A DNA stretch of 64,000 nucleotides from contig NW_027271164.1 of assembly GCF_040938485.1 (NCBI RefSeq), positions 2,080,064 through 2,144,063 on the forward strand. The letters are read 5' to 3'. Position 1 is the first letter of the stretch. Each line of letters begins with the position of its first letter. A program made the position numbers and the translations under genes. The notes beneath the pieces are model-generated. The model had not been told where the DNA came from, did not search any database, and saw only the letters and a program-made list of their open reading frames with translations. Below are positions 1 to 44,629 of the stretch, one piece after another. The stretch is from Diadema antillarum. Lineage: Eukaryota.

Positions 1-81
1 TCCGTAGAATTCGTACGACATCGCTGTTCCCGTCCGAAATCCGCCTCCGTGAATCCACACCATCACCGGAATATTCGATGA
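1..81 (-). CDS. CESL-0 exon 3 (truncated by window edge)
   Basis: Peptide [27 protein letters not shown]. Acceptor tcgcag at 82-87. Confidence 0.7.
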
Positions 82-99
82 CTGCGACATTTATGGATG

Positions 100-107
100 A
101 GGAGAGT

Positions 108-152
<45 letters not shown>

Positions 153-167
153 GGGGGGGGGGGGGGG
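100..167. repeat. (GA)n followed by a poly-G run of about 27 G
   Basis: Direct reading. The paralogous copy lies at 18966..19012. Confidence 0.9.
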
Positions 168-1014
168 CAATGAAAGAATCATACAAGGCTGACAATCTTT
201 TACTGAGAATGAAAAAGATGATAAGGAAACAGTGGTACCAGGGGATGTGGAGTGCCTTCCACCTTCCTCCTACCTGGTGCTACATTTTAAATTGTACTTG
301 TGAAATTCACTCCTCTCCCACCTTGTAATTCTCAGCACCCAATATCACAAAATTTGAGCAATGTTGAGATGAAATTACGACACAGGTGTTTTAAATTTTA
401 AAGGGAAATTCCGGTGGAGATGAAAGTTAGTCTGAAAAGAAGGAGTAAAATTTGCTTACAACATTGAAAATTTAATCAGAATCAGATGAAAAGTAAGGAA
501 GTTATGACATTTGAAGTTTCACTAATTTTCAGGTAACAGTTTTTGAACACGAGTCAATATGAATATGCAAATAGTGAAGTGATGATGTCATCCCCTCACA
601 ACTTGCCATATAATTTGTACAATTTCATTTTGACACTTCTTTTTTTTTTTCATTCAAACGCAATGATGCCCCAATCTCAAATCCTGATATATCTGACTGG
701 TTGTTATCATGAAGTTATTTATCCAGGAATAACATCATGTTTTACACTTCAGCAACAAAAACAGTGAATTTTCTTCATTTTTTTGTGTGTGTACAAGGTC
801 AATGGAAAACCAATGAAAACTGATGACATCATCAGCTGCTCACTTATTTGCATATTCATATCAACTGTACCAGAACTGTTCTGCAGAAATTAGCGGAACT
901 TCACAATTTCATGACTTCCCTAACTTCTATTCTGATCAATCAATTTTAACTGTTGTATTCGTAAGATTTTAGTCAATCTTACCAGACTGACTTATGAAGG
1001 ACTAGATTTTCTCT

Positions 1015-1430
1015 TTAAAAGGATGGTATAGTATTTGTACAGATGAGGATGGGGCTTTTAACTTTTTGCAAGATACAAAGAAACCACTTATGAAATAGTA
1101 CAGAGCATACCATTCTCAGAGGAATTCAAAGTGAATATGATGAAAACTTGCTCTGGAATGGCTGGGACATCCAAAAAACAAAACAAAACAAAACAAAACA
1201 AAGTAAATCAAATCGATCGTAATAAAAGCTGGGTCATAGCTTTCATTATTAGGATCGTTCTATTTTGGATATCTCAGCCATTTGAAAACCAATTTTTATC
1301 AAATAAATGTTCGATTCCTCTTGGAATTACATCCCCTCTCACATTTTGTAAGAGGTTTCTCATTATCTCACCAAAAATGTCAGAAACCTGAAGTTAGGTC
1401 TAAAGAAACCCCTACAGATCCCTTTAAGGT
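1015..1430. mobile_element. MITE-like palindromic element (family M1) in CESL-0 intron 2. It ends about 8 bp from the exon 2 splice donor and is absent from the paralogous CESL-1 intron.
   Basis: It shares GTACAG...GATATCTCAGCCATTTCAAAACC...CCCTTTAA structure with copies at 9650, 44788 and 45412. Confidence 0.55.
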
Positions 1431-1444
1431 AATTTCCCACTCAC

Positions 1445-1621
1445 AGATGTGCTTGGAGTGTAGACGTTGAGATAGAGACAATCCTCCGATCTGTTTGGGT
1501 AGAGAGGGTCAGGAATTTGTACGCAGGCTGGGGCAAACTCGGTGGCGTTTCTCTCTCCCGTCCATGGGGTCTTGCTTTCTGGCTTAGCGAAACGAGCAGG
1601 TGGATTGGCGTAGGGAACCCC
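1445..1621 (-). CDS. CESL-0 exon 2
   Basis: Peptide [35 protein letters not shown]...[14 protein letters not shown]. Acceptor cag, donor GTGAGT. Confidence 0.75.
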
Positions 1622-1844
1622 CTGTTTATGGAGTGTAAGAAAACATAAGCATTGTAATAACAATATCTTTTGTCAATTTCCTTATAACATGTATACATGT
1701 ATAACATGTATACAAGGCATTGAGAGTGAAACTGCATGATGCATTAAAAGCACAAATGATATACAGAAAAGACTGTAAAAACAGATTTGCGAAAATGTAC
1801 CACAATATTATACACAACGGATATACACTAAAGGCTAGTAACTG

Positions 1845-2165
1845 ATCATGGGAATCAGTGGGAATGCTGGGGATGCTTGTTCCATTCCTTGTGGGATTCA
1901 TCTAAGAGTATACATTATATATCTATTGTTGTGTGAAAATTATTTGCTTCAGAATGGTCTCATATTCAAGTAATGTGCAGTTTAATGTTTCCAGGTTAGC
2001 ATGCCTGTACAGTGGCGGGGCATTAAAATGCACATTACTTGAATATGAGACCGTTCTGAAGCAAACAATTTTCACGCAACAATAGATATATAATGTACTC
2101 TTAAATGAATCCCACAAGGATTGGAACAATCATTCCCCAGCATTCCAACTGATTCCCACTAATCA
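1845..2165. mobile_element. Hairpin (MITE-like) element of about 320 bp, a near-perfect palindrome, in CESL-0 intron 1. It is absent from CESL-1.
   Basis: Left arm ggaatgctggggatgcttgttccattccttgtgggattcat... Right arm ...atgaatcccacaaggattggaacaatcattccccagcattcc. The centre lies near 2010. Confidence 0.6.
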
Positions 2166-2685
2166 GTTACAGCCATCCCCTTTAAACAATATGAATACAT
2201 GTCATGGAAAGCTGTTTTGTGAGATTAGATTATACAGAGAGAGCACAGAATGTATAGGCCTACTTCTATTCTACCAATGTGTGTTTTTATTCACTGATCA
2301 CTTCAGTTTCTCCAGGGAGCAGAAAAATAATTCCCAGTTATTGTGACAAGGAAACATGAACGCTATTGAAGACAAGACCTATATGCTGATTAAACACTAA
2401 GAAGATACTGTCTGTAAAACGCATGAAAGTCAACAACATATTACATCTGGTCATAGTGCTCACTAACTTATTGGAACTAGAAAGACCAATTTTCTGCATG
2501 GGAACGCGGAAAATGCACTTGGAAAACCCATTCGCAACAGGAGCGAATTTGGAACTGAAGAATGTCAAATTGGCCTGTAAAATGACCGCCGAAATGAAGG
2601 CCGTGCACGTATGATACAAGAAGCCTTTATATAATTGGTATGACGAAAAACGAACACTGTACTAATGTAGTTGAAACTAATGGCA

Positions 2686-2772
2686 TTATCATTATTATTA
2701 TCATTATCATCATCATCATCATCATCATCATCAACAACATCATCATCATCATCAACAACATCATCATCATCA
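2686..2772. repeat. (ATC/ATT)n trinucleotide microsatellite
   Basis: Direct reading. It produces spurious poly-D, poly-I and poly-M ORFs in the track. Confidence 0.95.
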
Positions 2773-2882
2773 ATATAACCATCCGTAAAACTATATCCGA
2801 TAGAGTGCATGTATCAACACATACCTTGGTATTGAAATAAAAAGAGATTACCGATAGGATTTCTTCGGACAGCAACCCTTAC

Positions 2883-3044
2883 CAGAAATACATCGACATC
2901 GACTGTTTTGTTGATGAAGGTGTCTTCGCTGAATCGCACCGTTTTCCCCACAATGATTCCCTCAGCGACATTCACTACCGGGCTGCTGGCCCGACTTACC
3001 CCGAGGAAGGCACCGACCACCAGAACAAAAAGTTGAAGTTTCAT
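2883..3044 (-). CDS. CESL-0 exon 1 (signal peptide + N-terminus)
   Basis: ATG at 3044. Peptide MKLQLFVLVVGAFLGVSRASSPVVNVAEGIIVGKTVRFSEDTFINKTVDVDVFL. Donor GTAAGG follows CTG. Confidence 0.75.
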
Positions 3045-3245
3045 TTTCGCTATTGTCTAATGCGACTTGGCAGCACCAACAACATGCAATAAACTGTTCT
3101 GAAGGAAATTCTGCAAACTAATTACAACTTAAAACCCTACCAATCCCTCTTTGTTGTTTATCAAAGACTCGTATAATGTCATGTCATTGTTTGCTATATT
3201 CTATTTATACCCTCTATCTGTTTGCTTTACCAGTCAGGGAGACTA
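3045..3245 (-). promoter_or_regulatory. Candidate promoter-proximal region of CESL-0, conserved with the CESL-1 upstream region
   Basis: A conserved block including ctcgtataatgtcatgtcattgtttgctatattctatttataccct lies about 130 bp upstream of the ATG. Paralog similarity stops upstream of about 3245. Confidence 0.35.
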
Positions 3246-3942
3246 CCTATTTTGAGGGAAGATTGAAATCCCCCGTAGAGGGAACATTGAACCGCGAGCG
3301 GATGTTACGTAACGGAGCGACGCGATATGGTCAGAGCGAACCGTTACAGATGTTCTTTTTCCAGTCGCTATGAGAATAATTAACCGAGAGGGAGAGAGAG
3401 AAACACATGTACACACACGCAAGCGTACACACACGGCCCGGAGGCGCATTTTTAATTTACACGCAAGCCTGTGGCTTTTGGCAATTAAATTCAATGAAAC
3501 CGCTCCTGATGCGTCTATGCTTATTCTGTGGTACTATACATAAGAGTTCTGTGGGTACTGTACCCTCCGCTCGCGACGATTCGATTCGTACACGTGCATC
3601 AGTGAGTGTGTGCACGCGCTGAGAAAGTTTTGCTCGCCGTGGTAGACCCTCATCCAATTACTATACATGTAGTAGTACATGTATAAATACGTATAAAAAC
3701 GGGTGAGAGTGCGAAAAACGAGACAATACAAAACAAAACAAAAAATCTGACAAGAAGGAGAGGGGGAGAGAGAGAATCAGAAGGAAAGAGATAAAAAAAG
3801 CAATGAATATTCTGTGATATCTCATCAATCATGCACAACAGTGATGAATATTATTGCGGGTTCCATGGAAGATCACAACTTTATTGGTGTATGATGGGGA
3901 TGTGTAGGCCCCTAATGGGCTAGAGTGACCAAAGTTTATATA

Positions 3943-3993
<51 letters not shown>

Positions 3994-4899
3994 ATAAGTC
4001 CAAACATGTTGCGAATTCACGTATTGGCTACAAAATAATTATGTGGGGGAGGGAGGGGGGGGGGGGGAACCGAAGGTGAAGCCAATCCTGCCCGACCCCT
4101 CCGACCCCTCCCCCCACCGATATTGAAACGCATATCGACCAATAGGCTTACACAATGTCATGACGAGTAATGTATAATGTAACACTTTTTCGATCTCCGT
4201 AGATTGGTGATTGAAAAATTGACAGGAAAGATTGAAGGGAAAAGGAGTGGAGAAGAAGCGCATGGATGGAAAGCTTGAAGGGAGAGTAGTTGAAAGTTAT
4301 GGAATAGGCTATACAATGGTACATGTACATGTATCAGAAAGTTGTGAAATAACATGATCGCTTAAATCTATATACATTATGTACATATATTTATTTGTCA
4401 GCCTCCAACCCCCTCTGTTATATCTGTTGCTATTAAAGGCCCTAAATTTATCTTCATACTGATGGTATATTATTTTGTTTCTCAAACCTGCCCCTCTTTT
4501 CTTCATACTACTTTACACTCTGCATATTCATTTTCCGACCTCTCTCGACCTCCTCCTTTTTCAAATGCATAATTATGACTCCTGCATTTTTGTCCCTTCC
4601 TCGATCACTGCTTTAATTCTCATACAATTTATTTGTTTCTCATACTCTCTCTGTCTCTCCCCATCTCTCTTTCTCATGTTAAAACTTTACAATGTTTGTT
4701 TACAAGACCACTTTCTACTCTCTATACAGTGATCAGTTTGTCTAGAAACATGTTTAGTCAGTGCAAATATGTTGTGAAGGAAAATTACACCACTATTGCA
4801 TGAATTCATTACGCATTTTATTCACTTCTTTATGTTCAAGCACTTTTTTTTCATGAAGGTATACTGAGTATACAGATGTAATCTGATACTCCAATATTC

Positions 4900-7800
4900 A
4901 AGAAGACATTCTCAATACAAACTAGAACTATCACCCAATGTTGTATACACAGTTACTGACATTTGCCAAATCTCAAGTCAATTGCTCAAAACCTGAGTGA
5001 GTAAGTAAATAAATCAACAATTTCTATGTTTTTCATTAAAAATACTGTTACCATGGCAACACAATGTTTGACATTAAGAAAAAAAATGAAGTTTGCCCAG
5101 CTCTATCAGATAGCTGTCACATGTGCCAAATTTCAAGTCAAATGCTCAAAAACTGAGGGAGTTAAGTTAATCCACAATATTATTGTATGATTTTTATTCA
5201 AAATAAAATTATGCTGTCACCATATGTTGTGTCGAGCCCACTAATGTCAATAATATTCGACCACTAATATGGCTGTCGTATCTTTAAGCTATATGCTTAT
5301 TTGACGACAGTCTTCTGCATTTACGCTCCCGATCTTGTGCCATAATTCAGTGAGATCATTTATTTCGAATGGTTCGTGTTCTCTTACTCTTTTCGTTAAT
5401 CTGTACACGTATATCTCGGTTTTATATTCGAATGTACACACTGTATGTTCCATTCTCTTGTAAACAACAAGAAATGACTACTTAGTATTTCATTTTTGTA
5501 ATAAATGATCGATGCAGAAAATTCCTAATAAATTAATTTGAATTTGGATCGTGTAATGTCATAACATGTCGACAATAAATGTCAAAATCGGATTAACCAC
5601 AAATGTCATAACACGTCGACCAAAAATGTCAAAATTTCAATTTTTATTGCAAATGTGATAACACGTCGACGACAAATGTCATAACGACCACTGATGTCAT
5701 AACATGTCGACGACAAATGTCAAAATCGGATTAACCACAAACGTCATAACACGTCGACGACAAATGTCAAAATATAAATTTTTACTGTATATGTCATAAC
5801 ATGTCGACGACAAATGTCAACGACCATTAATGTCTTAACACCTCGACGACAAATGTCATAATGACCACAAATCACATGGGACAAATATCAAAGTCGGATT
5901 AACCACAAATATCATAACACATCGACGACAAATGTCAAAATTTCTGTCTTTATATACTGCAAATGTCATAACACGTCGACGACAATTGTCAAAATCGAAT
6001 TAACCACAAATGTCATAACGCGTCGACCACAAATGTCAGAATTTCCAAATTTACTGCAAATGTCATACTGCGTCACAGGGGAGGATCCAGGAATTCCGTA
6101 AAGGGGAGGCACCTTTACAAAATCAAAGTTTGGTGCAACCTCCTCCCTTTTTTTGATTTTATCAAAAATAGAGACGGGGAGGAGCGCCGCGGCCCCTTTA
6201 GATCAGCGACTGCGTCAGCCACAGGTTAATGGCAAAACCCAATGCTTGCATTACAAGGAGGCGACTTTTCAAAACTATACAAGCTGGCGCAACCCCCTAT
6301 TTTTTTTTCTTTTTATTTCTGTTGTTTGAACAAAAAAAAGGGTCATCAAAGGGGTTGCGCCCCCTCTCAACCCGCGATTGCGTCATCCACAAATGTCAAA
6401 ACTCATTGCTTGCATTTCATGGGCGGATCCAGGAATTCCGTGAAGGGGAGACACCTTTTCAAAATGAAAGGCTGGCGCAACCCCCCCCCCCTTGTTATTT
6501 TCCTCTTATTTCTTTTGTTTAAACGAAAAAAAGACAGAGAAGAAAGGAGTGGGTGCGGCAGTCTTTACTTTTGCAAAGGCGCCTCGCCTTTTCGGAATTC
6601 CGTGATCCGCCCCTGTAATGCAGCATTGGTTTTGCCATTAACATTTGTGGTCGTGTAACACATCGTGTTATGACATTTGCAGTAAAAATGGAAATTTTGA
6701 CGACGCAGTCGCGGATCTAGAGGGGGCGTGGCGCCCCTCCCCGTCTCTATATTTGCTAAAACAAAAGAAATAACATTAAAAAAGGGGAGGGGGTTGCGCC
6801 AGCCTTTGATTTTGTAAAGGCGTCTCCCCTTTACAGAATTCCTGGATCCTCCCCTGTGACGCGTTATGACATTTGCAGTAAATTTGGAGATCCACATATT
6901 TTGTAGTCGATGTGTTATGACATTTGTGATTAATTCGATTTTAACATTTGTCGTCGAGGTGGTATGGCATTTGCAGTAAAAACGGAAATTTTGACATTGT
7001 CGTCGACGTGTTATGACATTCGTCGTTAATCCGATTTTGATATTAGTCGTCGACGTGTTATGACATTAGTTGTCGTTATGAAATTTGTCGTCGACGTGTT
7101 GACATTTGCAGTAAAAAATTGATATTTTGACATTTGTCGTCGACGTGTTATGACATTTGTGGTTAATCCGATTTTGACAATTGTCGTCGACATGTTATGA
7201 CACTAGTGGTCGCTATGAAATTTGTCGTCGACGTGTCATGACATTTGCAGTAAAAATTGGAATTTTTGACATTTGTCTTCGACATGTTATGACATTAGTG
7301 GTCATTATGACATTTGTCGTCGACGTGTAATGACATTAGCGGTCGTTATGAAATTTGTCGTTTACGTCTTATGATGACATAAGTGGTTGTTATAACATTA
7401 CACGATATAAATTCAAATTAATAAGGAATTTTCTGCATCGGTCATATGTTACATTACAAAAATGAAATAGTCATTTCTTGTTGTTTACAAGAGAATGGAA
7501 CATACAGTGTGTACATTCGAATATAAAATTGAGATATACGTATACAGATTAAAGAAAAGAGTAAGAGAACACGTCGATTGGGAACCATTCGGAATAAATG
7601 ATCTCACTGAATTATGGCACTTAAGATCGGGAGTGTGAATGCAGAAGACTGTCGTCAAATAAGCATATAGCTTAAAGATACGACAGCCACATTAGTGGTC
7701 GAATATTGTTGACATTGATGGGCTCGACACACTATGGTGACTGCATAATTTCATTTTGAATGAAAATCGTACAATGATATTGTGAATTAACTTAAAGGAC

Positions 7801-8100
7801 AAGTCCACCTTCATATACATGTGGATTGAGTGAATGCAGCAATATCAATAGAGCACAACAGTGAAAGTTTGGGGGAAATCCGACAATCCGTTTCAAGAGT
7901 TATGAATTTTTAAAATATCTGCGTAGTCACTGCTGGATGAGACGACTACTACAGTGTTTGATGTCATATGCGTACAACCATTTTTTCTTAATATTAAACA
8001 TTGTCTTGCCATGGTAACAGTATTTTTAATGAAAATCATAGAAATTGTTGATTCATTTACTTACTTACTCAGGTTTTGAGCACTTTACTTGAGATGTGGC
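4900..8100. repeat. Perfect palindrome (foldback structure) of about 3.2 kb. Its arms contain tandem sub-repeats of about 60 bp that are rich in GTCGAC sites. A GC-rich nested hairpin (6060-6870) sits at the centre near 6480.
   Basis: 5230..5520 is the reverse complement of 7450..7745. 4980..5090 is the reverse complement of 7960..8100. The arm sub-repeat unit is aaatgtcataacacgtcgacgacaaatgtcaaaatcggattaaccac. Confidence 0.8.
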
Positions 8101-8102
8101 AT

Positions 8103-9460
8103 TTTCATCACTTTGATTTGATTTGATATTGTTTATTTATTCTCTGTATGACATCATTTACAATTCTATATATATATATATATATATATATTACGGAGAA
8201 ACTGAATACCTAATTTCAACCTATCTGGTTTTGAAAGTGTTGTTTATACTCTGAAAGTTTCATTTTCCTTGAAATTTTATTTCTAACATTTTAGGTAATT
8301 TTATGCAAGACGTTTTAAGAAAACGATGCCAACCTAACTATCATGAGATGATGCTCTAGTGAGACTAACGGCAGACTTAACTTTAAGAGAATCTTTATAC
8401 ATCTGCAGATGGCGGCAAAGTTCCTTGTAAAATTCACTTATTCACTGAAACATCACTGCTCAGGCTGATTGGAAAGCAAGCAGCAGCAACACAGTAAGGC
8501 TGCCGGAGATGCAAACAGTATTCCCCAACTATATTATTCAAATGTTAAAAAAATGGTAAAAGTTATTATAGTCATGTCTTGACAGCAGTAGTACGTTATT
8601 AGCATCATTGATTGTGACTATGTCTCAAAATGTAATCATCTCTTTCCCAGGTGAAAATCAAAATTGAAGAACAGATGCAATTGAAAAATCATGTGTTTAG
8701 AGTTGAAGCGTTCGAGAATAGTTTTGCTTCCGAGCTCAATTGAAATATGGAATAAGCTAGGTTCTAACTTAAAATAATTAAAGTGATATTGGTCCTAAAC
8801 TATTCTGACGGACTGACGGAGTCACGATGAAGAACCGTTTCGGTTGTCGTTCTCATAAGGTTTTCAATCAGTTACAGGTAGACCCTTGCTTGTACTCCTC
8901 GAATTCTTGTTGCCATCCAGTCAGTCCCGTTTTCCAGATACTAAAACTGTCTTGCCAATCCTTCTCTAGTTCGTCGATGTCTCCTGATAAAGAGGAATGA
9001 CATGATTTATCACATTTCATGTGCTCTTAACTCTTTTCAAAGTCTACATTTTGCTTCCGAATATTTGAAGATACCTCATAGGGTTGCACTGCTACATAGG
9101 GCCTAATATAATGTGAACAATGATGTTGAGTAGCGTTCCATCAACGTGTTATCCGATCATTCACATCATCTTTAAAATCTTAACTTTTCTAACATGGCTG
9201 TCATGGAAGCTTTGAATGCTTGTAAGTAAGTAACCGCTCGACTGACGGTTTTAACCTAACCATCATGGCATGATAGATGATAAGCAACCGCTCGACCGAC
9301 GGTTTTTAGTCCCCTATCCGAAAGACAAGGCAATGAGGGACAAGTGCCAAGGAACACATCCGCCGCATCCAGGAGTATTCGAACCAAAAACCTTGGATAG
9401 AAGCTTTGTATTAAGTCACCATTACCACCGTGGCACCATAGACGTAGAAATGGCATTCAA
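8103..9460. repeat. Duplicated 1.35-kb block, copy 1. It matches 23646..24960 and carries the orphan CESL terminal exon together with a tRNA-like (SINE-like) tail.
   Basis: The two copies are collinear with a few indels. A GGTTCGAATCC T-arm-like motif lies at the block edge, on the minus strand. Confidence 0.75.
8868..8983 (-). pseudogene. Orphan duplicate of the CESL-2 terminal exon. It has an intact acceptor, the same 37 codons and a stop. It lies 3.2 kb downstream of the CESL-1 stop with no upstream partner exons.
   Basis: It sits inside the duplicated block 8103..9460, which matches 23646..24960. It translates to SGDIDELEKDWQDSFSIWKTGLTGWQQEFEEYKQGSTCN followed by a stop. Confidence 0.55.
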
Positions 9461-9649
9461 CTCCAAGCTAGACCTTTCAGAATCAAGAAAACATGCTGTT
9501 TGTGGAAAAAAAAAGTCTTCCCCTGACCCGTGTCGGTATCACAATGGAGATTTCAATGCAGCTAATTTAATCCCATGACATCATACAGTATTTATATGAT
9601 TTGTCTGGTGTGTGTAATTCCTGGTAATTTCATGTAGCGATTGCCAATT

Positions 9650-10040
9650 TAAAGGGGTGGTACAGTATTGGTGGAGGCAAGGATTGGGATTTTAACTTTT
9701 TAAGATACCAAGAAACCCCTTATTGAAATAGTATAAAGTATACCATTCTAAGACAAATTCCAAGTTAATTTGATGAAAATAGATTTTGGAATGGCTGAGA
9801 AATTAAAAAACAAAGTAAAACAAAGTGATCGTAATGAAAGGTGGGTCTTACCTTTTATTAGGATTACTCTGTTTTGGGTATCTCACCCATTTCAAAACCA
9901 ATTTGTATCGATTAAATGTTGAATTTCTCTTGGAATTTGATCTTTCATATTCCATACGAGGTTTCTCATTATCTCCTCCCAAAATGCTAGAACCTGAACT
10001 TGTAGGTCTCATCCAAAACTATACGATCCCTCTAAAGAAA
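9650..10040. mobile_element. MITE-like element, family M1
   Basis: ttaaaggggtggtacagtattggtggaggcaagg ... gggtatctcacccatttcaaaaccaatttgtatcg ... ccctctaaag. Confidence 0.5.
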
Positions 10041-16840: not shown

Positions 16841-17534
16841 TTTGATGATTTTTCAAATTAACATTGATTGTTTTTTTCGTTGGAGGAGCATTTTGCTCGG
16901 TCGCAGTCACACTGCACGATATGCGTGCTCAATGTCAATGCGTGTGCAAGGCCGCTGAAAATGCATCGCGCTCTACACTGTTGGTGCAAAATTGCACCGG
17001 GGACGTTGCGGCGCTCGTTGGTGGCCGAATACTGTTGCAGTAGACATTTGCATTCAACCCTTGCATTGAATAATTCCCGTAGACACTAATCATAGGGGTA
17101 ATTGCCTAGGGGGTACGTAAATTTTGTTTTTCTTTTTTGCTTTTGTGGATACCATCAAAGATCGTACACTCATATGACCTTTGATATTTGATGATTTTTC
17201 AAATTAACATTGATTGTTTTTTTCGTTGGAGGAGCATTTTGCTCGGTCGCAGTCACACTGCACGATATGCGTGCTCAATGTCAATGCGTGTGCAAGGCCG
17301 CTGAAAATGCATCGCGCTCTACACTTTTGGTGCAAAATTGCACCGGGGACGTTGCGGCGCTCGTTGGTGGCCGAATACTGTTGCAGTAGACATTTGCATT
17401 CAACCCTTGCATTGAATAATTCCCGTAGACACTAATCATAGGGGTAATTGCCTAGGGGGTACGTAAATTTTGTTTTTCTTTTTTGCTTTTGTGGATACCA
17501 TCAAAGATCGTACACTCATACGACCTTTGATATC
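16841..17534. repeat. Tandem duplication of 2 x 347 bp in CESL-1 intron 4
   Basis: 16841..17187 matches 17188..17534. The track ORFs 16868..17089 and 17214..17435 are identical. Confidence 0.85.
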
Positions 17535-18797: not shown

Positions 18798-18957
18798 CTG
18801 TTGTAAAGTGTGCAAAGATTGACAGTCGGTAGTTTATGGTTACGATTATGACGTCACCCACAGCAACCAATGGCAATCCGTAGAATTCGTGCGACATCGC
18901 TGTTCCCGTTCGAAATCCGCCTCCGTGAATCCACACCATCACCGGAATATTCGATGA
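18798..18957 (-). CDS. CESL-1 exon 3
   Basis: Peptide [53 protein letters not shown]. Acceptor ttgcag, donor GTAAGA, ends in phase 1. Confidence 0.75.
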
Positions 18958-18976
18958 CTGCAACATTATGGGTGAG

Positions 18977-19007
<31 letters not shown>

Positions 19008-19913
19008 GGGGGAAGCGAAGAAAGAATCATACACGGCTGACAATATCATAATACTAAGAATGACAAAAAAGATGAGAAGGAAACAGTGGTACCAGGGGAT
19101 GTGGAGTGTCTTCCACCTTCCTCCTACCTGGTGGTACATTTTATTTGTGAAACTCGTTCCTCTCCCACCTTGTAAGTCTCACCAAATATCACAAAATTTG
19201 AGCAGTGTTGAGATGAAATTACGACACAGGTGTTTTGAATCTTAAAGGGAAATTCCGGTGCAGCTGAAAGTTCGTCTGAAAAGAATGCGTAAAAGTTCTT
19301 TAGCACAACATTGAAAATTTGATCAAAATCAGATTAAAAATAAGGAAGCTTTGACATCTAAAGTTTCACTTATTTTCGGAAACTGTTCTTGAACAGTCAA
19401 CATGAATATGTAAATAGTGAAGTGATGATGTCACCCCCTCATAACTTGCCACATAATTTGTACAATTTCATTTTGACCTTTCCTTTTTTTTTTTCATTAA
19501 ATGCAATGATGCCCCAATCTCAAATCCTGGTATATCTGACTGGTTATTAATTTGAAGTTATTCAACCAGGAAAAACATCATGTTTTACACTTCAGTAACA
19601 AAAAACAGTGACTTTTCATCATTTTTTTTTTTGTACACGATCAATGGAAAACTGGTGAAAAATGATGACATCATCAGCTCACTTATTTGCATATTCATAT
19701 CAACTGTACGAGAATTGCTCTGCAGAAATTAGCGAAATTTCACAATTTCATAACTTCCTTAATCTTTATCAGATTTTGGTTAATTAATTCTCACTGTGGT
19801 ACTCGCATGAGTTTACTCTGTCTTATCAGACTGATTTAAAACTGGATTGGAATTCCTTTTTAACCCTCTGCGTGCCACAGTAACTTCCAGTCAATAGGTA
19901 GTTTCCCACTCAC

Positions 19914-20090
19914 AGATGTGCTTGGAGTGTAGACGTTGAGATAGAGACAATCCTCCGATCTGTTCGGGTAGAGAGGGTCAGGAATTTGTACGCAGGCTGG
20001 GGCAAACTCGGTGGCGTTTCTCTCTCCCGTCCATGGAGTCTTGCTTTCTGGCTTAGCGAAACGAGCAGGTGGATTGGCGTAGGGAACCCC
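19914..20090 (-). CDS. CESL-1 exon 2
   Basis: Peptide [59 protein letters not shown]. Donor GTGAGT. Confidence 0.8.
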
Positions 20091-20989
20091 CTGGAGTGTC
20101 AGATGACATACATAAGTTTTGCAACAGCAATACTTTCATCAGTTCCATCAAAATACGAAATCTAACTCAGGCAATGACAATGGAGCTCATGCGTTAATTT
20201 TACATATCAAACAAGAGAAGGTTGAAAGACTATAAAGGCACCTTTGTGAACTTTGATTTGATTTGATTTGATTTGATTTATTTCTGCTTAATTCCGTTTC
20301 ATCAAGATATGATTGTGTACAAGTCAGTTATGACAAACAGTATATCAACACATAGTTTTTAGTACAAAACAAAACAAATACAAACAGCTCAGGGAACTTG
20401 AACAGAAGGGTCTCCAAAATAAGCCGAGGCTTGACGGTATGGAGACCCTATACTTAGCTACTCTGGATAGAAGAAGGGATAGAGAGAGAGAGGGAAGGGT
20501 AGGGGGAAGGGGGAAAATTACAGAGTGTATGTGTACCACTCCTACTACTTTACTTTAAAAGTAATGATAATAAATGTAATACGATAATAATATTAAAGTT
20601 AACACGTTCAGTTGCCTTTCCCGTAGTAATGACCGAATATGCACTGTGAAAATAGTAATGAATGAATACAAAGCATTCTACATGAGGTTATCTGTCATGA
20701 AATAACAAACTATATCGTGGTTAAATGTGCACAGTAATGGTAAGGCACATGGTATACATACATAATGTGCTCATATACATAATATACATATGTGCCTATC
20801 CTATACATACACATACATACCCATATTTATGATATATATATGGATAGATAAATAAATCGATGTATGTATGCACACATACATGCATCATGTACCACGTACA
20901 TATTTATATACATTTGATTATGATACAATATAGATATCAAAATGTTATCCTTGGGAATACTGCTTGAGGAGGTGAAGTTTCACAGCCTT

Positions 20990-21400
20990 CTTGAATGAAT
21001 ACATAGTGGTCATGTTTTTAATTTCGTGTCTGAGTCTGAGTGTCTGATAGAATGATGCGCGAGTGCAGTTTTGGGGTTAAATAAATGTAAATTTGTGGAT
21101 TGTCTGGTAGGATAGGAGTGAATCTCTGAATTTGACGGAAATATTCTGCTAAATATTGGAGGCAAGAGATATGACTTGAGGCAACACATAAATACAGCTT
21201 TTTGGAGAAAGTTTATGTCATTTATCTTAACTCTTAAGAGATTTAAGCTGACAAAACAAGGGGTCGGTGTGATCTCGAGAGCGTGCTCGACTGCACACTC
21301 AATTGCTCTTTTCTGCAGGAGAAGTATACGGTCTGTGATACATTTGTGGGTTGCCCAAATAATGTTGCAATACGATATATATGGCAGGAACAAAGCATTA
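20990..21400 (-). mobile_element. 3' fragment of the same CR1/L2-like LINE family, in CESL-1 intron 1
   Basis: Minus-strand ORF 21010..21393 reads LPYISYCNIIWATHKCITDRILLLQKRAIE...HSYPTRQSTNLHLFNPK. This is homologous to the C-terminal region of the 39718..41238 ORF (LPYISYCNVVWGT...LQKKVIRI...HSYPTRICRNFHLLNPK). Confidence 0.6.
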
Positions 21401-22163
21401 TACAGGTTAAATAGTATACACGAGTTGGAAACTTTTACACTGCAGATATACCATATCTATAACACTGTGTATCATACGTCGGGGAAGGCTGTTTTTTTGT
21501 TACATTATTCGATTATAATGTCTAATCCCATTCGATACCATTGCGTAGTGCCAATTAGGGCTTCTAGCCCATCAATGTGATTGATCACACCGATAAACGC
21601 CTAGCAACGTGCAGAAAAATCAATCCCATTCGTTGAGAAACATGAACTCCATTGAAAACAACATCTATTCTGAATAAAGATTGAGAAGAGACCGTCTGTA
21701 GAACACATGAAAAGCAACGACACAGTATATCTGGTCATAATGGTCACTAGCTTATTGGAACTAGAATGACTAGTTTTCTGAAATACGAAATCAATTGAAC
21801 TGTGGTCTGACTTTCTACAATAAATGCGATGTTATTTATATCCAAAATAATATGTAGGACCGCGTAAAATGCATTTGGAGAAGCCATTCGCAGCGGAAGA
21901 CAATTGGATCCGACAGTATGTCATAGTGGCTTGTAAAATGACTGCGAAAAATTAAGGCGGTGCACGTATGATATATGAAGACTTACATGGTTGGCATAAC
22001 GACGAAAAACGCTCACTGTACTAATGTACTTGAAACTATATAGTGGCATTACTATAATCATCATCAATAGCCATCCGTAAAACTTCGATATAGAGTGCAT
22101 AATATACACGCACACCTTGGTATTGAAAGAAAAAGAGATTACGGATAGAACAGCAACCCTTAC

Positions 22164-22325
22164 CAGAAATACATCGACATCGATTGTTTTGTTGATGAAG
22201 GTGTCTTCGCTGAATCGCACGGTTTTCCCCACAATGATTCCCTCAGCGACATTCACTGCCGGGCTGCTGGCCCGACTTACCCCGAGGAAGGCACCGACCG
22301 CCAGAACAAAAAGTTGAAGTTTCAT
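22164..22325 (-). CDS. CESL-1 exon 1
   Basis: ATG at 22325. Peptide MKLQLFVLAVGAFLGVSRASSPAVNVAEG...DVDVFL. Donor GTAAGG. Confidence 0.8.
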
Positions 22326-22520
22326 TTTCGCTATCTAATGCGACTTGGCAGCACCGACAACATGCAGTAAACGGTTTCGAAGGAAATTCTGCAAAAAGTT
22401 AGACCTTGAAACTCTACCCATCCCATTTTGCTGTTTATCAAAGGCTTGTATAATGTCATGTCATTGTTTGCCATATTCTATTCATACCCTTTATCTGTTT
22501 GCTTTACCAAGCAAGATAAA
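22326..22520 (-). promoter_or_regulatory. Candidate promoter-proximal region of CESL-1
   Basis: It carries the same conserved block, cttgtataatgtcatgtcattgtttgccatattctattcataccct. Confidence 0.35.
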
Positions 22521-23216
22521 GAAAGATTTTTTGACTGAATAATGCTTTTAAAGGAGATAAGCAACGTTCTAATAGATTCTGCCGAAGAGCCTCGATGTTT
22601 TTCATTCTCACGTTGTTGTTCTATACCTGCCTAGGATCCTTAACCTTATTAAAAACAATGATTATCATTAACTCAAAATGTAAAATCAAATTTAAACAAT
22701 ATACGTTACCAGAAAATATGTTGGAAAGCAATATTCTCGCTATGCTGCATGGAATTGACCCTTTCCCCCTTAGAAACTAGATACCATTCCGTCCAATCGA
22801 AGTGACCTTTAATCAAGTACTGATAAGACTTATTATGTTCATTCTCCAAGATAATACGCATGCACAACGGATAAGAGTCACATTCCTTCGTCTTTTGAGA
22901 TCTGTATCACGACTGAGATTGTTTGTGCCAACGATGATGGCAAGCATGAGTTAATCTAGAGTTTCAATGAACATCACCCACCTCTTAGGATTGTATGTTA
23001 TTGGAATTGTTTCGCTGATCTCGATATCTTATACAAACGCCCAAAAAGGGGAAAAAAGAAAGATAACGATTGAAATAATCTCTGATTTTGAGTTGGAGGG
23101 CTTAAATTCAAGTGAATTTTTTATTGTATTGTTATTTAACTGAAGACTCATTAAGTGTAAATAAGAGTTTATGTGTACATATAAATGCATAATCATATTT
23201 CCACGTTCATATATAC

Positions 23217-23218
<2 letters not shown>

Positions 23219-23258
<40 letters not shown>
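23219..23258. repeat. (GT)n microsatellite
   Basis: Direct reading. Confidence 0.9.
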
Positions 23259-23259
<1 letters not shown>

Positions 23260-23645
23260 TGTGCTTGTGTAATATTAACTTGCTATCCCAAATATCGATC
23301 ACATAAAGCAACGACCTCGATTTGTTGCGTAATTCGATGGAGAGAGAAAGAGGAAGTGACAATTATTAGCTATTATAATAAGATATGACTTGTATTTATC
23401 TCCGTGCTTGTGCACGTGTGTGTCTTTGAGTATGCCACAACTGATTACACATCATACAGAAAACAGTTTATTAGAACAATTAATGCATTGATTGGACCAA
23501 AAGAAGCTTATTTTGCTGCAGAAACACAAACAACTTCTTCCTCTTTATCATGTACAAGGGTTTAAAAATTAAAAATTTAATGCACAAATAGGGAGATAAA
23601 ATCCATCATGATCAGGCTTTATACGATAAAATTGATTAACAAGTC

Positions 23646-23722
23646 ATTTTCATCACTTTGATTTGATTTGATATGGTTTATTTATTCTCCGTATGACATC
23701 ATTTACAATTCTTTTTAAAGCG

Positions 23723-23772
<50 letters not shown>

Positions 23773-24960
23773 CGGAGAAACTGAATACCTAATTTCAGCC
23801 TGTCTGGTTTTGAAAGTGTTATTTAAACTCTGAAAGTTTCATTTTCCTTGAAATTTTATTTCTGACATTTTAGGTAATTGTATGCAAGACGTTTTAAGAA
23901 AACGATGCCAACCTAACTATCATGAGATGATGCTTTAGTGAGACTAACGGCAGACTTAACTTTCTTTAAGAGAATCTTTGTACATCTGCTGATGGCTGCA
24001 AAGTTCCTTGTAAAATTCACCTATTCACTGAAACATCACTGCTCAGGCTGATGGGAAAGCAAGCAGCAGCAACACAGTAAGGCTGCAGGAGATGCAAACA
24101 GTAATCCCCAACTATATTATTCAAATGTTAAAAAATGGTAAAAGTTATTATAGTCATGTCTTGATAGCAGCAGTACGTTATTAGCATCATTGATTGTGAC
24201 TATGTCTCAAAATGTAATTATCTCTTTCCCAGGAGAAAATCAAAATTGAAGAACAGATGCAATATTGAAAAATCATGTGTTTAGAATTGAAGCGTTCGAG
24301 AATCGTTTTGCTTCCGAGCTCAATTGAAATATGGAATAAGCTAGATTCTAACTTAAAATAATTAAAGTAATAGTGGTCCTAAACTCTTCTGACGGACTGA
24401 CGGAGTCACGATGAAGAACCGTTTCAGTTGTCGTTCTCATAAGGTTTTCAGTCAGTTACAGGTAGACCCTTGCTTGTACTCCTCGAATTCTTGTTGCCAT
24501 CCAGTCAGTCCCGTTTTCCAGATGCTAAAACTGTCTTGCCAATCCTTCTCTAGTTCGTCGATGTCTCCTGATAAAGAGGAATGACATGATTTATCACATT
24601 TCATGTGCTCTTAATTCTTTTCAAATTGTACATTTTGCTTCCGAATATTTGAAGATACCTCATAGGGTTGCACTGCTACGTAATGTAATGTGAGCGATGA
24701 TGTTGAGTAGCGTTCCATCAACGTGTTATCCGATCATTCACATCATTTTTAAAGTCTGAACTTTTCTAACGTGGCTGTCAAGGAAGCAATGAATGCTTGA
24801 AGTAAGCAACCGCTGGACTGACGGTTTTAAGTCCCCTATCCGAAAGAAAACGCAATGAGGGACAATTGCCAAGGAACTCATCCGCCAAATCCAGGTGGAT
24901 TCGAACCACAAACCTCGGATTGACACTCCATCGTCTTTTCCACTGAGACACAGCATCCAA
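23646..24960. repeat. Duplicated 1.35-kb block, copy 2. It contains the functional terminal exon and 3' flank of CESL-2.
   Basis: See copy 1. Confidence 0.75.
24452..24567 (-). CDS. CESL-2 exon 10 (terminal)
   Basis: Peptide DIDELEKDWQDSFSIWKTGLTGWQQEFEEYKQGSTCN followed by a stop. Acceptor ttatcag. Confidence 0.75.
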
Positions 24961-39699: not shown

Positions 39700-41670
39700 A
39701 AAAGTGGACATCTGTGAGTGACAGAATTCATCATATCCAATACTCAGTACTTCCCATATGATAGACAGCAGTGTGAAAATAAATCAGTAGCATGGATTCA
39801 TCAGCATGGTGATATGTTTCAAAGACCTCTTAATAGTGGCAGCATAATTCTGAAAATGCTGAAAATAGCGAAAGTTAATCCTGTACATAAAAAAGATGAT
39901 CCTCATGAAATTAGTAATCATCGTCCTATTTCTTTATTGCCTAGTATATCCAAAATCTTAGAAAAAATTGTTTATGATAGACTTCTTAAATTTATTAATA
40001 AGTATGATTTACTTATTCCCAATCAATATGGTTTCAGAAAAAATTATTCAACTGATTTAGCACTAATACAAATTTATGACAAAATTACGAGTGCTTTTGC
40101 AAACAAAGAACATGTTGCAGGTATATTTTGTGATTTGAGTAAAGCATTCGATACTCTTGATCATTCTATTTTACTCACCAAACTTAGTCATTATGGTATT
40201 CGAGGACAAGCACTTTTATGGCTTACAGATTATCTAACTAATAGAAGACAATATGTTATTTTTAATGGTTGTGAATCTGACCCCCTTTTAATTAAATGTG
40301 GTGTTCCTCAAGGCTCAATTCTAGGCCCATTATTATTCCTTCTTTATGTTAATGATATCATAAATACATCCTCTCTTCTCTCTTTTGTTCTATTTGCTGA
40401 TGATACGAATATATTTTATTCTCATAAAGATCTTAAGATTTTAAATGACACTTTAAATATTGAAATTAGTAAAGTATCAAATTGGTTTAAGTCTAATAAA
40501 CTTTCTTTGAATATAAAAAAGACTCATTTTATTCATTTCAAACTTCATTCTCATAATGAAGATACGTTGATACATATTAACATTGATGATATCCCATTAG
40601 AAAAGAAAATGAATTCAAAATTTCTAGGAGTATATATAGATGAAAGTTTGACTTGGAATGAGCATTTACATCATGTTACAACGTGTATTTCTAGAAATAT
40701 AGGGATAATTTCCAAGCTGAAGTTCTTTCTTCCTCGTTCAACTTTATTTCTATTATATAATTCCTTAATTCTCCCATATATAAGTTATTGCAATGTTGTA
40801 TGGGGTACTTGCGGCTCTACCAAAATAAATTCTATATTTAAATTACAAAAGAAAGTTATACGTATTTGTACAGGATCGCATTTTCCGGCTCATACTGATT
40901 CTTTATTTCATGAGCTTAAAACATTGAAGGTTTTTGATTTGAATATTATTCAAGTAGCAGTAATTATGTTCAAATATATACATCATCAACTTCCATCATC
41001 GTTTGATAACATGTTTAGGTTCAATACTTCTGTCCATTCGTACCCTACTCGTATATGTAGAAATTTCCACCTTTTGAATCCCAAATTGTTAGTGACACAT
41101 AAATCTACAAGATATTCGGGTCCGGATATTTGGAATAATCTCCCGGATAATATAAAGTCTTGTTCAAGTATTTATTCTTTGAAAGCTTCACTTAAACGAT
41201 ATTTGATACAATTATATTCTCCAAACCAATTGAGCTAACAAATATTTATAGTATAGATTGTCATCTTATTGTCAATCTCTATTTTCTTCCTTCAACTGCA
41301 TCTTGCACTCTCACCTGCAACTGCACTGCACTCACCTGATCACCTTCCTCCAAGAGAGTTATGTCGTTGGATAGTCATTTTATGAGGCCTCCATCCATTT
41401 CAAGCTTAATCGCTTATGATGGTGGTCTCCTGCATTCAATTATCTCTGTTGTTTACTGAAAAATACTGTATATTTTATTTTATGTTTCTGTGTATCTACA
41501 TTGCTCAATGCAATCACCTATGTGAATCTATTTATGTACTGTTATCGATTTATTTCACTGCACTTGTTATTCTTTGTCTTTGTACTTTTTGAAGTTTGCA
41601 TTCAAATTGCATCTGATTGAATGCAGAAATAAAAGCAAACAAACAAACAAACAAACAAATAATTCTCAAA
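39700..41670 (+). mobile_element. 5'-truncated non-LTR retrotransposon (CR1/L2-like LINE). The RT ORF is intact, there is no endonuclease domain, and the 3' end carries a (CAAA)n tail. It is antisense within CESL-3 intron 5.
   Basis: RT motifs present: RPISLLPSISKILEKIV, FRKNYSTDLAL, CDLSKAFDTLDHSILLTKL, GVPQGSILGPLLFLLYVNDI and FADDTNIF. The (CAAA)n run is at about 41632-41668. Confidence 0.8.
39718..41238 (+). CDS. LINE ORF2 reverse transcriptase, 506 aa, uninterrupted
   Basis: Taken from the six-frame track. All RT blocks are in frame, including the FADD (YXDD-type) box. Confidence 0.8.
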   Translation: MTEFIISNTQYFPYDRQQCENKSVAWIHQHGDMFQRPLNSGSIILKMLKIAKVNPVHKKDDPHEISNHRPISLLPSISKILEKIVYDRLLKFINKYDLLIPNQYGFRKNYSTDLALIQIYDKITSAFANKEHVAGIFCDLSKAFDTLDHSILLTKLSHYGIRGQALLWLTDYLTNRRQYVIFNGCESDPLLIKCGVPQGSILGPLLFLLYVNDIINTSSLLSFVLFADDTNIFYSHKDLKILNDTLNIEISKVSNWFKSNKLSLNIKKTHFIHFKLHSHNEDTLIHINIDDIPLEKKMNSKFLGVYIDESLTWNEHLHHVTTCISRNIGIISKLKFFLPRSTLFLLYNSLILPYISYCNVVWGTCGSTKINSIFKLQKKVIRICTGSHFPAHTDSLFHELKTLKVFDLNIIQVAVIMFKYIHHQLPSSFDNMFRFNTSVHSYPTRICRNFHLLNPKLLVTHKSTRYSGPDIWNNLPDNIKSCSSIYSLKASLKRYLIQLYSPNQLS

Positions 41671-44452: not shown

Positions 44453-44629
44453 CTTGTTACTCGGGGAGTACACGTTCAGATAGAGACAGTCCTCTGACAT
44501 GTAGGGGATTTCAGTGTTGTTAACCTGCAGGCAGGCTGGGGCAAACTCGGTGGCGTTTCTCTCGCCCGTCCATGGAGTCTTGCTCACTGGCTTCGCGAAA
44601 CGCTCCGGTGGATCTGCGTAGGGAATTCC
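44453..44629 (-). CDS. CESL-3 exon 2
   Basis: Peptide [59 protein letters not shown]. Donor GTGAGT. Confidence 0.8.

What the first reader, a model, noticed from the sequence alone, without database searches (positions are those of the whole stretch)
4900..8100. Perfect 3.2-kb palindrome with internal tandem GTCGAC-containing sub-repeats and a GC-rich nested hairpin at its centre
The two arms of about 1.5 kb each are reverse complements down to single bases. Examples are 5230..5520 against 7450..7745 and 4980..5090 against 7960..8100. Each arm holds about 10 tandem copies of a roughly 60-bp unit (aaatgtcataacacgtcgacgacaaatgtcaaaatcggattaaccac). The centre from 6060 to 6870 is a second, GC-rich inverted repeat around a C/G homopolymer. 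This is the architecture of a Foldback-type transposon, or of a recombination-prone cruciform hotspot, sitting just upstream of the CESL-0 promoter. The near-identity of the arms implies very recent origin or ongoing homogenisation by gene conversion.
Basis: seen in the sequence. Interest (0 to 1): 0.6.

Follow-up and report, generated by a model that had tools for sequence, protein, structure and literature searches.

The report
Decayed foldback-type inverted repeat, sea urchin
A 3.1-kb stretch between two sea-urchin esterase genes is a long but clearly imperfect inverted repeat with internal tandem sub-repeats, most likely the worn-out, non-coding remnant of a foldback-type transposon, which is an ordinary kind of genomic repeat.

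Summary
The inverted repeat is real, at 4964-8101, but it is not perfect. The arms are collinear from the ends to a roughly 58-nt central loop. They match at 91% of aligned bases and at only 75% of all alignment columns, with 104 mismatches and 49 indel events. One 77-bp block faces a 185-bp block, and the longest exact inverted match is 61 nt. Mismatches favour transitions (57:34), so this is natural decay, not an assembly artefact, recent origin or homogenisation.

Each arm has three parts:
- a roughly 590-700-bp non-tandem flanking domain;
- a roughly 500-bp tandem array with a 23-bp base unit, a 47-bp period (not 60) and a 137-138-bp higher order;
- a GC-richer inner unit.

The centre (46% GC, C11 at 6481-6491) continues the same symmetry. 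The element has no coding capacity, no RNA-family match and no other copy in the window or in the searchable collections.

A paralogous gene-array unit lacks the element, and homology to it resumes exactly at the right arm end (8100). The left flank has no such match, and the target-site duplication is ambiguous.

My best reading is an old, non-autonomous foldback-like long-TIR element in an echinoid cholinesterase-like gene cluster. A non-mobile inverted duplication remains a serious rival. Interest is low.

The parts
4964..5084 (.). Left arm, outermost block of the flanking domain. It pairs with 7981-8101.
   Evidence: 92.6% complementary, 121 nt, no gaps. It is a diverged tandem relative of 5119-5224 (D9, 89% over 44 nt).
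5085..5161 (.). Left arm block that faces a much longer block in the right arm (77 bp against 185 bp).
   Evidence: Global alignment. Only 35.7% of columns match.
5162..5553 (.). Left arm, non-tandem flanking domain. It pairs with 7400-7795.
   Evidence: 94.7% of aligned bases, 10 gap events. Holds the longest exact inverted matches, 61 and 52 nt.
5554..6055 (+). Left arm tandem sub-repeat array. Base unit about 23 bp (AATGTCATAACACGTCGACSACA), period 47 bp, higher order 138 bp. AATGTCA recurs about every 23 bp.
   Evidence: TRF rows 5555-5820, 5554-5862 and 5955-6074. D3 family of 15 copies, 14 of them in this array. 16 AATGTCA and 8 GTCGAC in the left half of the element.
6056..6216 (+). Left inner GC-rich unit (U1), with an internal CCTCCTCCC/GGGAGGAGG hairpin. 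It pairs with 6702-6901.
   Evidence: I2 and I20. 88.8% of aligned bases.
6217..6701 (.). Central segment. It holds further copies of the GC-rich unit: partial + copy 6259-6380, + copy 6411-6516, and - copy 6546-6635. These sit around a roughly 58-nt loop that starts within the C11 run (6481-6491). One stray sub-repeat unit lies at 6661-6701.
   Evidence: D8, D11, I8, I13, I19. C11 run. Nested hairpin fold, z = -22.9. The ORFs here have no Pfam family and the 138-aa ORF has no homologue.
6702..6901 (-). Right inner GC-rich unit. It pairs with 6056-6216.
6902..7399 (-). Right arm tandem sub-repeat array (period 47, higher order 137).
   Evidence: TRF 6900-7337 (9.5 copies of 47 bp) and 6946-7361 (3.1 copies of 137 bp). 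15 TGACATT and 7 GTCGAC in the right half of the element. 90.0% of aligned bases against the left array, with 17 gap events.
7400..7795 (.). Right arm, non-tandem flanking domain.
7796..7980 (.). Right arm 185-bp block without a proper partner in the left arm.
7981..8101 (.). Right arm, outermost block. The right end of the inverted repeat.
   Evidence: Homology to the paralogous unit (23645 onward, 97%) starts at 8100.
4957..4964 (.). Candidate left copy of a target-site duplication (TGACATTT). An alternative is ATTT at 4961-4964.
   Evidence: It matches 7 of 8 bases with TGGCATTT at 8097-8104, but that site overlaps the last 5 bp of the inverted repeat. ATTT/ATTT is the only in-register perfect repeat. 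Not statistically convincing.
8097..8104 (.). Candidate right copy of a target-site duplication (TGGCATTT). An alternative is ATTT at 8101-8104.
23645..23712 (+). Paralogous site in the next unit of the gene array. It lacks the element, and its homology to the element's right flank begins here.
   Evidence: 8100-8167 against 23645-23712 at 97%; 8167-9254 against 23746-24830 at 94.8%. There is no left-flank homology.

Best explanation
The region 4964-8101 is an old, non-autonomous foldback-type (long terminal inverted repeat) DNA element. It lies in the spacer between two tandem cholinesterase-like genes of a sea urchin.

Shown:
- Each arm has an outer non-tandem flanking domain, a roughly 500-bp array of 23/47/138-bp sub-repeats, and an inner GC-rich unit.
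- The symmetry runs almost to the centre, leaving a loop of about 58 nt.
- The element encodes nothing recognisable.

Inferred:
- It arrived by cut-and-paste transposition, mobilised in trans by a transposase encoded elsewhere.
- The AATGTCA-containing units, iterated about every 23 bp, served as multiple transposase-binding sites. This has been shown for Galileo and proposed for FB-like elements.
- Since then the two arms have decayed independently, to about 8% substitutions and about 49 indels, so the element is now almost certainly immobile.
- As single-stranded DNA or as a transcript it would still fold into a long hairpin.
For: Collinear arms from the ends to the centre.

Domain layout. 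It matches the FD / tandem-repeat OD / ID / M scheme described for Tetris, which also lacks ORFs (PMC4079207).

Sub-repeat motif.
- It is strongly concentrated in the element and is strand-specific by arm. AATGTCA occurs 16 times in the left half and its complement TGACATT 15 times in the right half. Outside the element the 61 kb of window holds 11 and 13.
- Tandem repeats inside long TIRs carry transposase-binding sites in Galileo (PMC3688188).

Age of the arrays. Cross-arm identity within the arrays (best blocks 91-93%) exceeds the identity between higher-order copies in one arm (85-87%). So the arrays predate the arm duplication and have not been homogenised since.

Discrete boundary.
- The element's sequence occurs nowhere else in the 64-kb window. 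Only its own two arms match each other, so it does not derive from neighbouring sequence.
- A paralogous unit lacks it, and homology resumes exactly at the right arm end, 8100 = 23645.

No coding or RNA signal. No Pfam family, no RNA family and no tRNA.

Arm divergence.
- It has a natural spectrum, with 57 transitions to 34 transversions.
- It is of the order seen in other foldback families. Tm1 arms average 93% identity (PMC3169594).

A second, unrelated long-TIR structure in the same window (47104-51443) shows that such structures occur in this genome.
Against: - No second copy could be found in the window, in two metagenome scans or through the central ORF. Multi-copy status and mobility are therefore untested.
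- There is no convincing 8-10-bp target-site duplication at the ends of the inverted repeat. The candidates are a 4-bp ATTT, or a 7/8 match that overlaps the last 5 bp of the repeat.
- The left flank (3233-4963) has no homology to the paralog, so the 'empty site' is defined on one side only.
- The arms are more diverged (about 8%) than the adjacent paralogous block (3.8%). A simple 'inserted after the duplication with identical arms' history does not fit without extra assumptions.
- No transposase partner has been identified.
Confidence: 0.58

Rival explanations
1. The palindrome is a non-mobile local inverted duplication. A roughly 1.5-kb intergenic segment that already held a 47-bp minisatellite and GC-rich units was copied in inverted orientation next to itself. 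The likely routes are fold-back priming or template switching during replication or break repair. The two arms have decayed since.
For: - The symmetry continues almost to the centre with only a roughly 58-nt loop. This is typical of fold-back or template-switch palindromes.
- It is a single copy as far as could be searched.
- There is no clean target-site duplication.
- The region sits in a tandemly duplicated, rearrangement-prone gene array whose blocks differ in divergence.
Against: - Neither arm is present in the paralogous unit, and the boundary of homology falls to the base at the outer end of the right arm. This is what an inserted discrete unit predicts.
- The three-domain arm layout, with motif-bearing sub-repeats, matches described foldback families.
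- The centre is itself built of several unit copies in -> -> <- <- order, which needs more than one simple fold-back step.
Confidence: 0.3
2. The palindrome is an assembly artefact, either a chimeric inverted join or a missed-adapter long read.
For: Large palindromes are a known failure mode of long-read assembly (general knowledge). No read data are available here to rule it out directly.
Against: - The arms differ by 104 substitutions and 49 indel events, including indels of 6-26 bp and a 77-against-185-bp block.
- The substitution spectrum is transition-biased, 57:34, with 17 transitions at CpG contexts.
- The tandem arrays differ in unit arrangement between the arms.
- The symmetry stops at defined ends, and the flanks are unique and non-symmetric. 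One flank continues into a paralog-matched sequence.
- A chimeric join would give near-identical arms, or error-type 1-bp indels, and symmetry running out to the read end.
Confidence: 0.03
3. Whatever its origin, the structure is now a functional locus. It could be a hairpin-RNA or small-RNA source, or a cis-regulatory module with arrayed factor-binding sites that acts on the esterase gene 1.9 kb away.
For: - A transcript through the region would fold into a roughly 1.3-kb imperfect hairpin (MFE -1143 against -305 kcal/mol for shuffles, computed with DNA parameters).
- About 31 iterated TGACATT/AATGTCA motifs lie upstream of a gene start.
Against: - There is no expression or small-RNA data.
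- The only RNA-family hit is far below threshold (MIR7504, 27 bits against a gathering score of 83, E = 0.11).
- The arms are decaying freely with many indels, which shows no sign of constraint.
- The paralogous gene does without the structure.
Confidence: 0.05

Closest known systems
Tetris (Drosophila virilis foldback transposon; PMC4079207)
   Same: - Long TIRs are divided into an outer non-tandem flanking domain, a tandem-repeat domain and an inner domain, around a non-coding middle.
- There are no conserved ORFs, and no autonomous partner is known.
   Different: - There is no sequence similarity. The comparison is of architecture only.
- Tetris repeats are about 220 bp, against 23/47/138 bp here.
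- Tetris has verified 8-10-bp target-site duplications and many genomic copies. Neither could be shown here.
Galileo and other Foldback-like long-TIR elements of Drosophila (P superfamily; PMC3688188, PMC3573991)
   Same: The TIRs exceed 1 kb and are internally repetitive. Tandem repeats in the TIR carry iterated short motifs, which in Galileo are bound by the transposase THAP domain.
   Different: - Complete Galileo copies encode a P-type transposase, and Galileo has 7-bp target-site duplications (from memory).
- This element has no coding sequence, and its motif (AATGTCA) is not known to bind any protein.
TU elements of Strongylocentrotus purpuratus (Liebermann et al. 1983; Hoffman-Liebermann et al. 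1985). Recalled from memory and cited in PMC4079207; the papers were not readable here.
   Same: - Both are foldback elements in sea-urchin genomes.
- Both have long modular inverted repeats with tandemly repeated domains, variable or absent middle segments and no obvious coding capacity.
   Different: - As I recall, TU inverted repeats have short (about 15-bp) tandem repeats in the OUTER domain and 8-bp target-site duplications.
- Here the tandem array is internal to a roughly 590-bp non-tandem flanking domain, and its units are 23/47 bp.
- No sequence comparison was possible.
Tm1 Mutator/Foldback family of root-knot nematodes (PMC3169594)
   Same: - The TIRs are composite and built largely of short tandem repeats.
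- Many members are non-coding.
- The two arms of one element are on average 93% identical.
- A paralogous empty site was used as evidence of mobility.
   Different: - Tm1 has clean 9-bp target-site duplications, defined terminal motifs and many copies.
- Tm1 repeats are 13-15 bp.
- Here the paralogous 'empty site' matches on one side only.

Membership tests
Foldback-type (FB-like) long-TIR DNA transposons (a structural class) | Very long terminal inverted repeats make up most of the element. | tested here: met
   The arms 4964-6216 and 6702-8101 (1253 and 1400 bp) make up 85% of the 3138 bp. They are collinear, and the symmetry continues to a roughly 58-nt loop.
Foldback-type (FB-like) long-TIR DNA transposons (a structural class) | The arms are internally repetitive, with tandem sub-repeats inside the TIRs. 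| tested here: met
   Arrays at 5554-6074 and 6900-7361, with 47-bp period, 23-bp base unit and 137-138-bp higher order.
Foldback-type (FB-like) long-TIR DNA transposons (a structural class) | A target-site duplication flanks the element. It is 8-10 bp in FB, Tetris and Tm1. | tested here: inconclusive
   In register there is only a 4-bp ATTT. An 8-bp match at 7 of 8 bases (TGACATTT/TGGCATTT) overlaps the last 5 bp of the inverted repeat. My rough calculation puts this near what chance would give within a few bases of the ends.
Foldback-type (FB-like) long-TIR DNA transposons (a structural class) | Multiple dispersed copies in the genome, or insertion polymorphism (evidence of mobility). | not testable with these tools
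   There is no other copy in the 64-kb window. Two metagenome pattern scans and an ORF-based protein search found nothing. No echinoid genome DNA collection is available.
Foldback-type (FB-like) long-TIR DNA transposons (a structural class) | An empty site exists at a paralogous or orthologous locus. | tested here: inconclusive
   On the right, paralog homology (97%) starts at 8100, at the arm end. On the left, 3233-4963 has no homology to 22510-23644.
Mutator/Foldback or P superfamily (transposase-defined) | The element encodes a superfamily transposase, or is demonstrably mobilised by one, or has diagnostic termini. | tested here: not met
   - No ORF of 50 aa or more inside the element looks like a real gene.
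- The three central ORFs match no Pfam family.
- Pfam scans of window ORFs found only reverse transcriptase and carboxylesterase. A transposase encoded elsewhere in the genome cannot be excluded.
Sea-urchin TU elements | Sequence homology to the TU inverted repeats, with an outer domain of short tandem repeats. | not testable with these tools
   TU sequences and papers were not retrievable. By recalled description, the domain order differs, because the tandem array here is internal and not outermost.
Perfect palindrome or cruciform-forming hotspot | Near-perfect arms with a short spacer. | tested here: not met
   The longest exact inverted matches are 61 and 52 nt, separated by about 2 kb. The innermost pair, 6411-6487 with 6546-6622, is only 78% complementary.

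The most novel reading that the evidence does not exclude
The most novel reading is an undescribed echinoid foldback family that is still being used. One possibility is that it is transcribed into a roughly 1.3-kb hairpin RNA that feeds an endo-siRNA or piRNA pathway. The other is that it is a mobile cassette of arrayed AATGTCA/ACGTCGAC binding sites that rewires expression of neighbouring cholinesterase-like genes. My evidence does not exclude this, but nothing positive supports it.
Probability: 0.05. Interest if true: 0.45.

Novelty: new member of a known kind. Interest (0 to 1): 0.15.

Why it matters
It matters little beyond annotation. This looks like a degenerate long inverted-repeat element of a class known since the 1980s, including in sea urchins.

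It should be masked or annotated as a repeat when the cholinesterase-like gene cluster is analysed. It also marks one of the places where two paralogous units of the array differ structurally.

If genome-wide copies exist, the element could define a new echinoid foldback family, with iterated 23-bp motif-bearing units that would be candidate transposase-binding sites.

The main value of this check is negative. The 'perfect palindrome, recent origin or ongoing homogenisation' claim does not hold, and an assembly artefact is unlikely.

Tried and rejected
1. I looked for other copies in the window with blastn (word size 11, E <= 1e-3). There were none. The only hits were (TA)n and the paralogous right flank.
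2. I ran two exact-pattern scans of JGI metagenome contigs. One used the sub-repeat core GTCATAACAYGTCGACGACAAATGTCA and the other the GC-unit core GGATCCAGGAATTCYGTRAAGGGGAG. Both returned 0 hits.
3. I searched the 5.8-billion-protein collection with the 138-aa central ORF, hoping to reach other copies through called ORFs. There were no hits.
4. I tried to fetch the Diadema antillarum contig of the best esterase homologue. It is not on record.
5. An Rfam scan in E-value mode gave only a sub-threshold miRNA-family hit. There are no tRNAs, and the central ORFs match no Pfam family. This rules out a SINE or tRNA-derived origin, a coding element and any known RNA family.
6. I tested left-flank homology to the paralog with word size 7 and Smith-Waterman against shuffles. 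The result was at chance level.
7. I scanned for target-site duplications over +/-20 bp at both ends. The result was ambiguous.
8. I tried to read the original TU-element paper by DOI. It is not held. Text searches for sea-urchin foldback literature returned only secondary citations.
9. I rejected a Transib-like reading based on a 5-bp CATTT duplication. The ends are out of register by one base, and the termini do not carry a CACAATG-type heptamer at the very end.
10. I did not use structure prediction, the representative-protein search or the phage, plasmid and E. coli collections. The element is non-coding and eukaryotic.
Full report
**Context.** The window is eukaryotic, at 37.8% GC.
- It carries a tandem array of carboxylesterase/cholinesterase-like genes on the minus strand. 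ORF 56115-56843 matches Pfam COesterase.
- The best homologue of that ORF is 'cholinesterase 1-like' of the sea urchin Diadema antillarum, at 76-88% identity across exons of the gene at about 56-62 kb. The in-window paralogues match it at only 41-88%.
- The source is therefore an echinoid, probably not D. antillarum itself.
Its signal-peptide exon is 2814-3044 on the minus strand.
- The structure begins 1.9 kb upstream of that gene's ATG.

**Observation.** A very long inverted repeat is present at 4964-8101.
- Minus-strand self-alignment pairs 5162-6216 with 6702-7795, at 80.0% identity over 1126 columns with 46 gap openings (E = 0).
- It also pairs 4964-5084 with 7981-8101, at 92.6% with no gaps.
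- A global alignment of the left half against the reverse complement of the right half is collinear from the outer ends almost to the centre.
- The repeat is not perfect. Over the arms there are 1095 matches, 104 mismatches and 49 gap events. That is 91.3% of aligned bases and 75.3% of all columns.
- A 77-bp block (5085-5161) faces a 185-bp block (7796-7980).
- The longest exact inverted matches are 61 and 52 nt, about 2 kb apart.

**Anatomy of each arm, from outside inward.**
- First comes a non-tandem flanking domain, 4964-5553 on the left and 7400-8101 on the right. Its outermost part holds two diverged copies of a roughly 110-160-bp unit (D9 and D13).
- Next comes a roughly 500-bp tandem array, 5554-6055/6074 on the left and 6900-7399 on the right.
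  - The base unit is about 23 bp (AATGTCATAACACGTCGACSACA), the period is 47 bp, and the higher-order unit is 137-138 bp.
- The period is not about 60 bp.
- Last comes a GC-rich inner unit, 6056-6216 on the left and 6702-6901 on the right.

**The centre.** The segment 6217-6701 holds further copies of the same GC-rich unit in -> -> <- <- order, around a roughly 58-nt loop next to a C11 run at 6481-6491.
- It is 46% GC, against 33-36% in the arms.
- As single-stranded DNA it folds into a nested hairpin, -264 against -111 kcal/mol, z = -22.9.
- The whole element folds at -1143 against -305 kcal/mol.
- The centre is therefore the continuation of the same palindrome, not a second one.

**Nature of the arm differences.**
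- Mismatches are transition-biased, 57 transitions to 34 transversions, with 17 transitions in CpG contexts.
- Indels range from 1 to 26 bp.
- The arrays differ in unit arrangement between the arms.
- This is the signature of natural, independent decay. It is not sequencing or assembly error, and it contradicts 'very recent origin or ongoing homogenisation'.
- Cross-arm identity of the best-aligned array blocks (91-93%) exceeds identity between higher-order copies in one arm (85-87%). So the array predates the arm duplication and has not been homogenised since.

**Content.**
- ORFs of 50 aa or more inside the element are short, and those in the centre are low-complexity.
- The three central ORFs match no Pfam family, and the 138-aa ORF has no homologue among 5.8 billion proteins.
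- There is no tRNA.
- There is no Rfam family, only a sub-threshold miRNA hit at 27 bits against a gathering score of 83.
- The AATGTCA motif is strongly concentrated and arm-oriented. It occurs 16 times in the left half of the element, and its complement TGACATT 15 times in the right half. Outside the element the window holds 11 and 13.
- GTCGAC occurs 15 times in the element, out of 21 in the whole window.

**Boundaries.** The gene array contains paralogous units.
- Block 1-3232 matches 18877-22509 at 79-98%, and block 8100-9398 matches 23645-24920 at 89-97%.
- Between these blocks, unit A holds 4867 bp (3233-8099), including the element. Unit B holds an unrelated 1135 bp.
- Homology resumes at 8100, which coincides to within one base with the outer end of the right arm (8101). 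This argues that the palindrome is a discrete inserted or deleted unit.
- The 1.7 kb to the left of the element has no counterpart in unit B, so the empty site is one-sided.
- The arms (about 8% substitutions) are more diverged than the adjoining paralogous block (3.8%).
  - One possibility is that the element predates the last homogenisation of that block, with a conversion tract stopping at the non-homology.
  - The other is that the arms were already imperfect when the element arrived.
- The target-site duplication scan is ambiguous. The candidates are a 4-bp ATTT in register, or TGACATTT/TGGCATTT at 7 of 8 bases overlapping the last 5 bp of the repeat.

**Search for relatives.**
- There is no other copy in the window.
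- Two metagenome pattern scans were empty.
- The Diadema contig could not be retrieved.
- No echinoid genome DNA collection is available, so copy number and mobility remain untested.

**Interpretation.** The architecture matches described foldback elements.
- The layout is flanking domain / tandem-repeat domain / inner domain / short non-coding middle. This is the layout of Tetris, which has long TIRs up to 1.7 kb, no ORFs and 8-10-bp TSDs (PMC4079207).
- Galileo's long, internally repetitive TIRs carry transposase THAP-binding sites in their tandem repeats (PMC3688188).
- In Tm1 the two arms average 93% identity (PMC3169594).
- Foldback elements (TU) were described in sea urchins in the 1980s. 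This is cited in PMC4079207, and the details I give are from memory.
- I therefore favour, at about 0.58, an old, non-autonomous, now immobile foldback-like long-TIR element whose iterated 23-bp units were transposase-binding sites. That last point is inferred by analogy.
- A non-mobile local inverted duplication, by fold-back or template switch, of a minisatellite-bearing segment is a serious rival at about 0.3. The symmetry runs nearly to the centre, and neither a clean TSD nor a second copy was found.
- An assembly artefact is unlikely, at about 0.03.
- A current function as a hairpin-RNA source or regulatory array is not excluded, but nothing supports it.

**Verdict.** The structure, its coordinates, the sub-repeats and the GC-richer centre are real. 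'Perfect', the '60-bp unit' and a separate 'second' inverted repeat are wrong.

Noticed in passing
window 47104-51443: A second long inverted repeat, much better preserved. The arms 47104-48026 and 50521-51443 are 923 nt, 98.3% complementary, with no gaps and 2494 nt between them.
- An older partial direct copy of the arm lies inside (49568-50401 matches 50667-51363 at 75-93%).
- There is no ORF of 110 aa or more.
- There is no obvious target-site duplication, and weaker inverted similarity continues in the outer flanks (47060-47086 against 51461-51487).
- It is unrelated in sequence to the 4964-8101 element.

It may be a younger long-TIR or foldback-like element, and it looks more promising than the finding itself.
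   Followed up: partly
window 1-3232 against 18877-22509, and 8100-9398 against 23645-24920: Paralogous units of the esterase gene array show very uneven identity. An exon block, 1427-1624 against 19896-20093, is 98.5% identical. Neighbouring blocks are 79-88%, and the block right of the element is 95-97%. This suggests patchy gene conversion between tandem paralogues.
   Followed up: partly
window 1911-2097: A small hairpin element with arms 1911-1987 and 2021-2097 (77 nt, 95% complementary, 33-nt spacer). It lies in what is probably an intron of the leftmost esterase-like gene and looks MITE-like.
   Followed up: no
window 16841-17533 and 43906-44375: Two young tandem duplications or minisatellites. 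One has a 346-bp unit in 2.0 copies at 99% identity. The other has a 116-bp unit in 4.1 copies at 96%, preceded by a related 29-bp repeat at 43817-43894.
   Followed up: no
window 39718-41238 (+) and 57931-60258 (+): Non-LTR retrotransposon remnants. The first is an intact 506-aa ORF with an RVT_1 domain (E = 8e-35). The second is a set of several frame-broken ORFs that look RT-like by eye and lie in the GC-richest part of the window. A further RT-like C-terminal fragment lies at 21010-21393 on the minus strand.
   Followed up: partly
window 1054-1392, 9648-9975, 44531-45749: A dispersed repeat family is shared between these places in both orientations at 73-89% identity. It includes local hairpins at 44866-45092 and 44866-45671. 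It is probably another MITE-like family.
   Followed up: no
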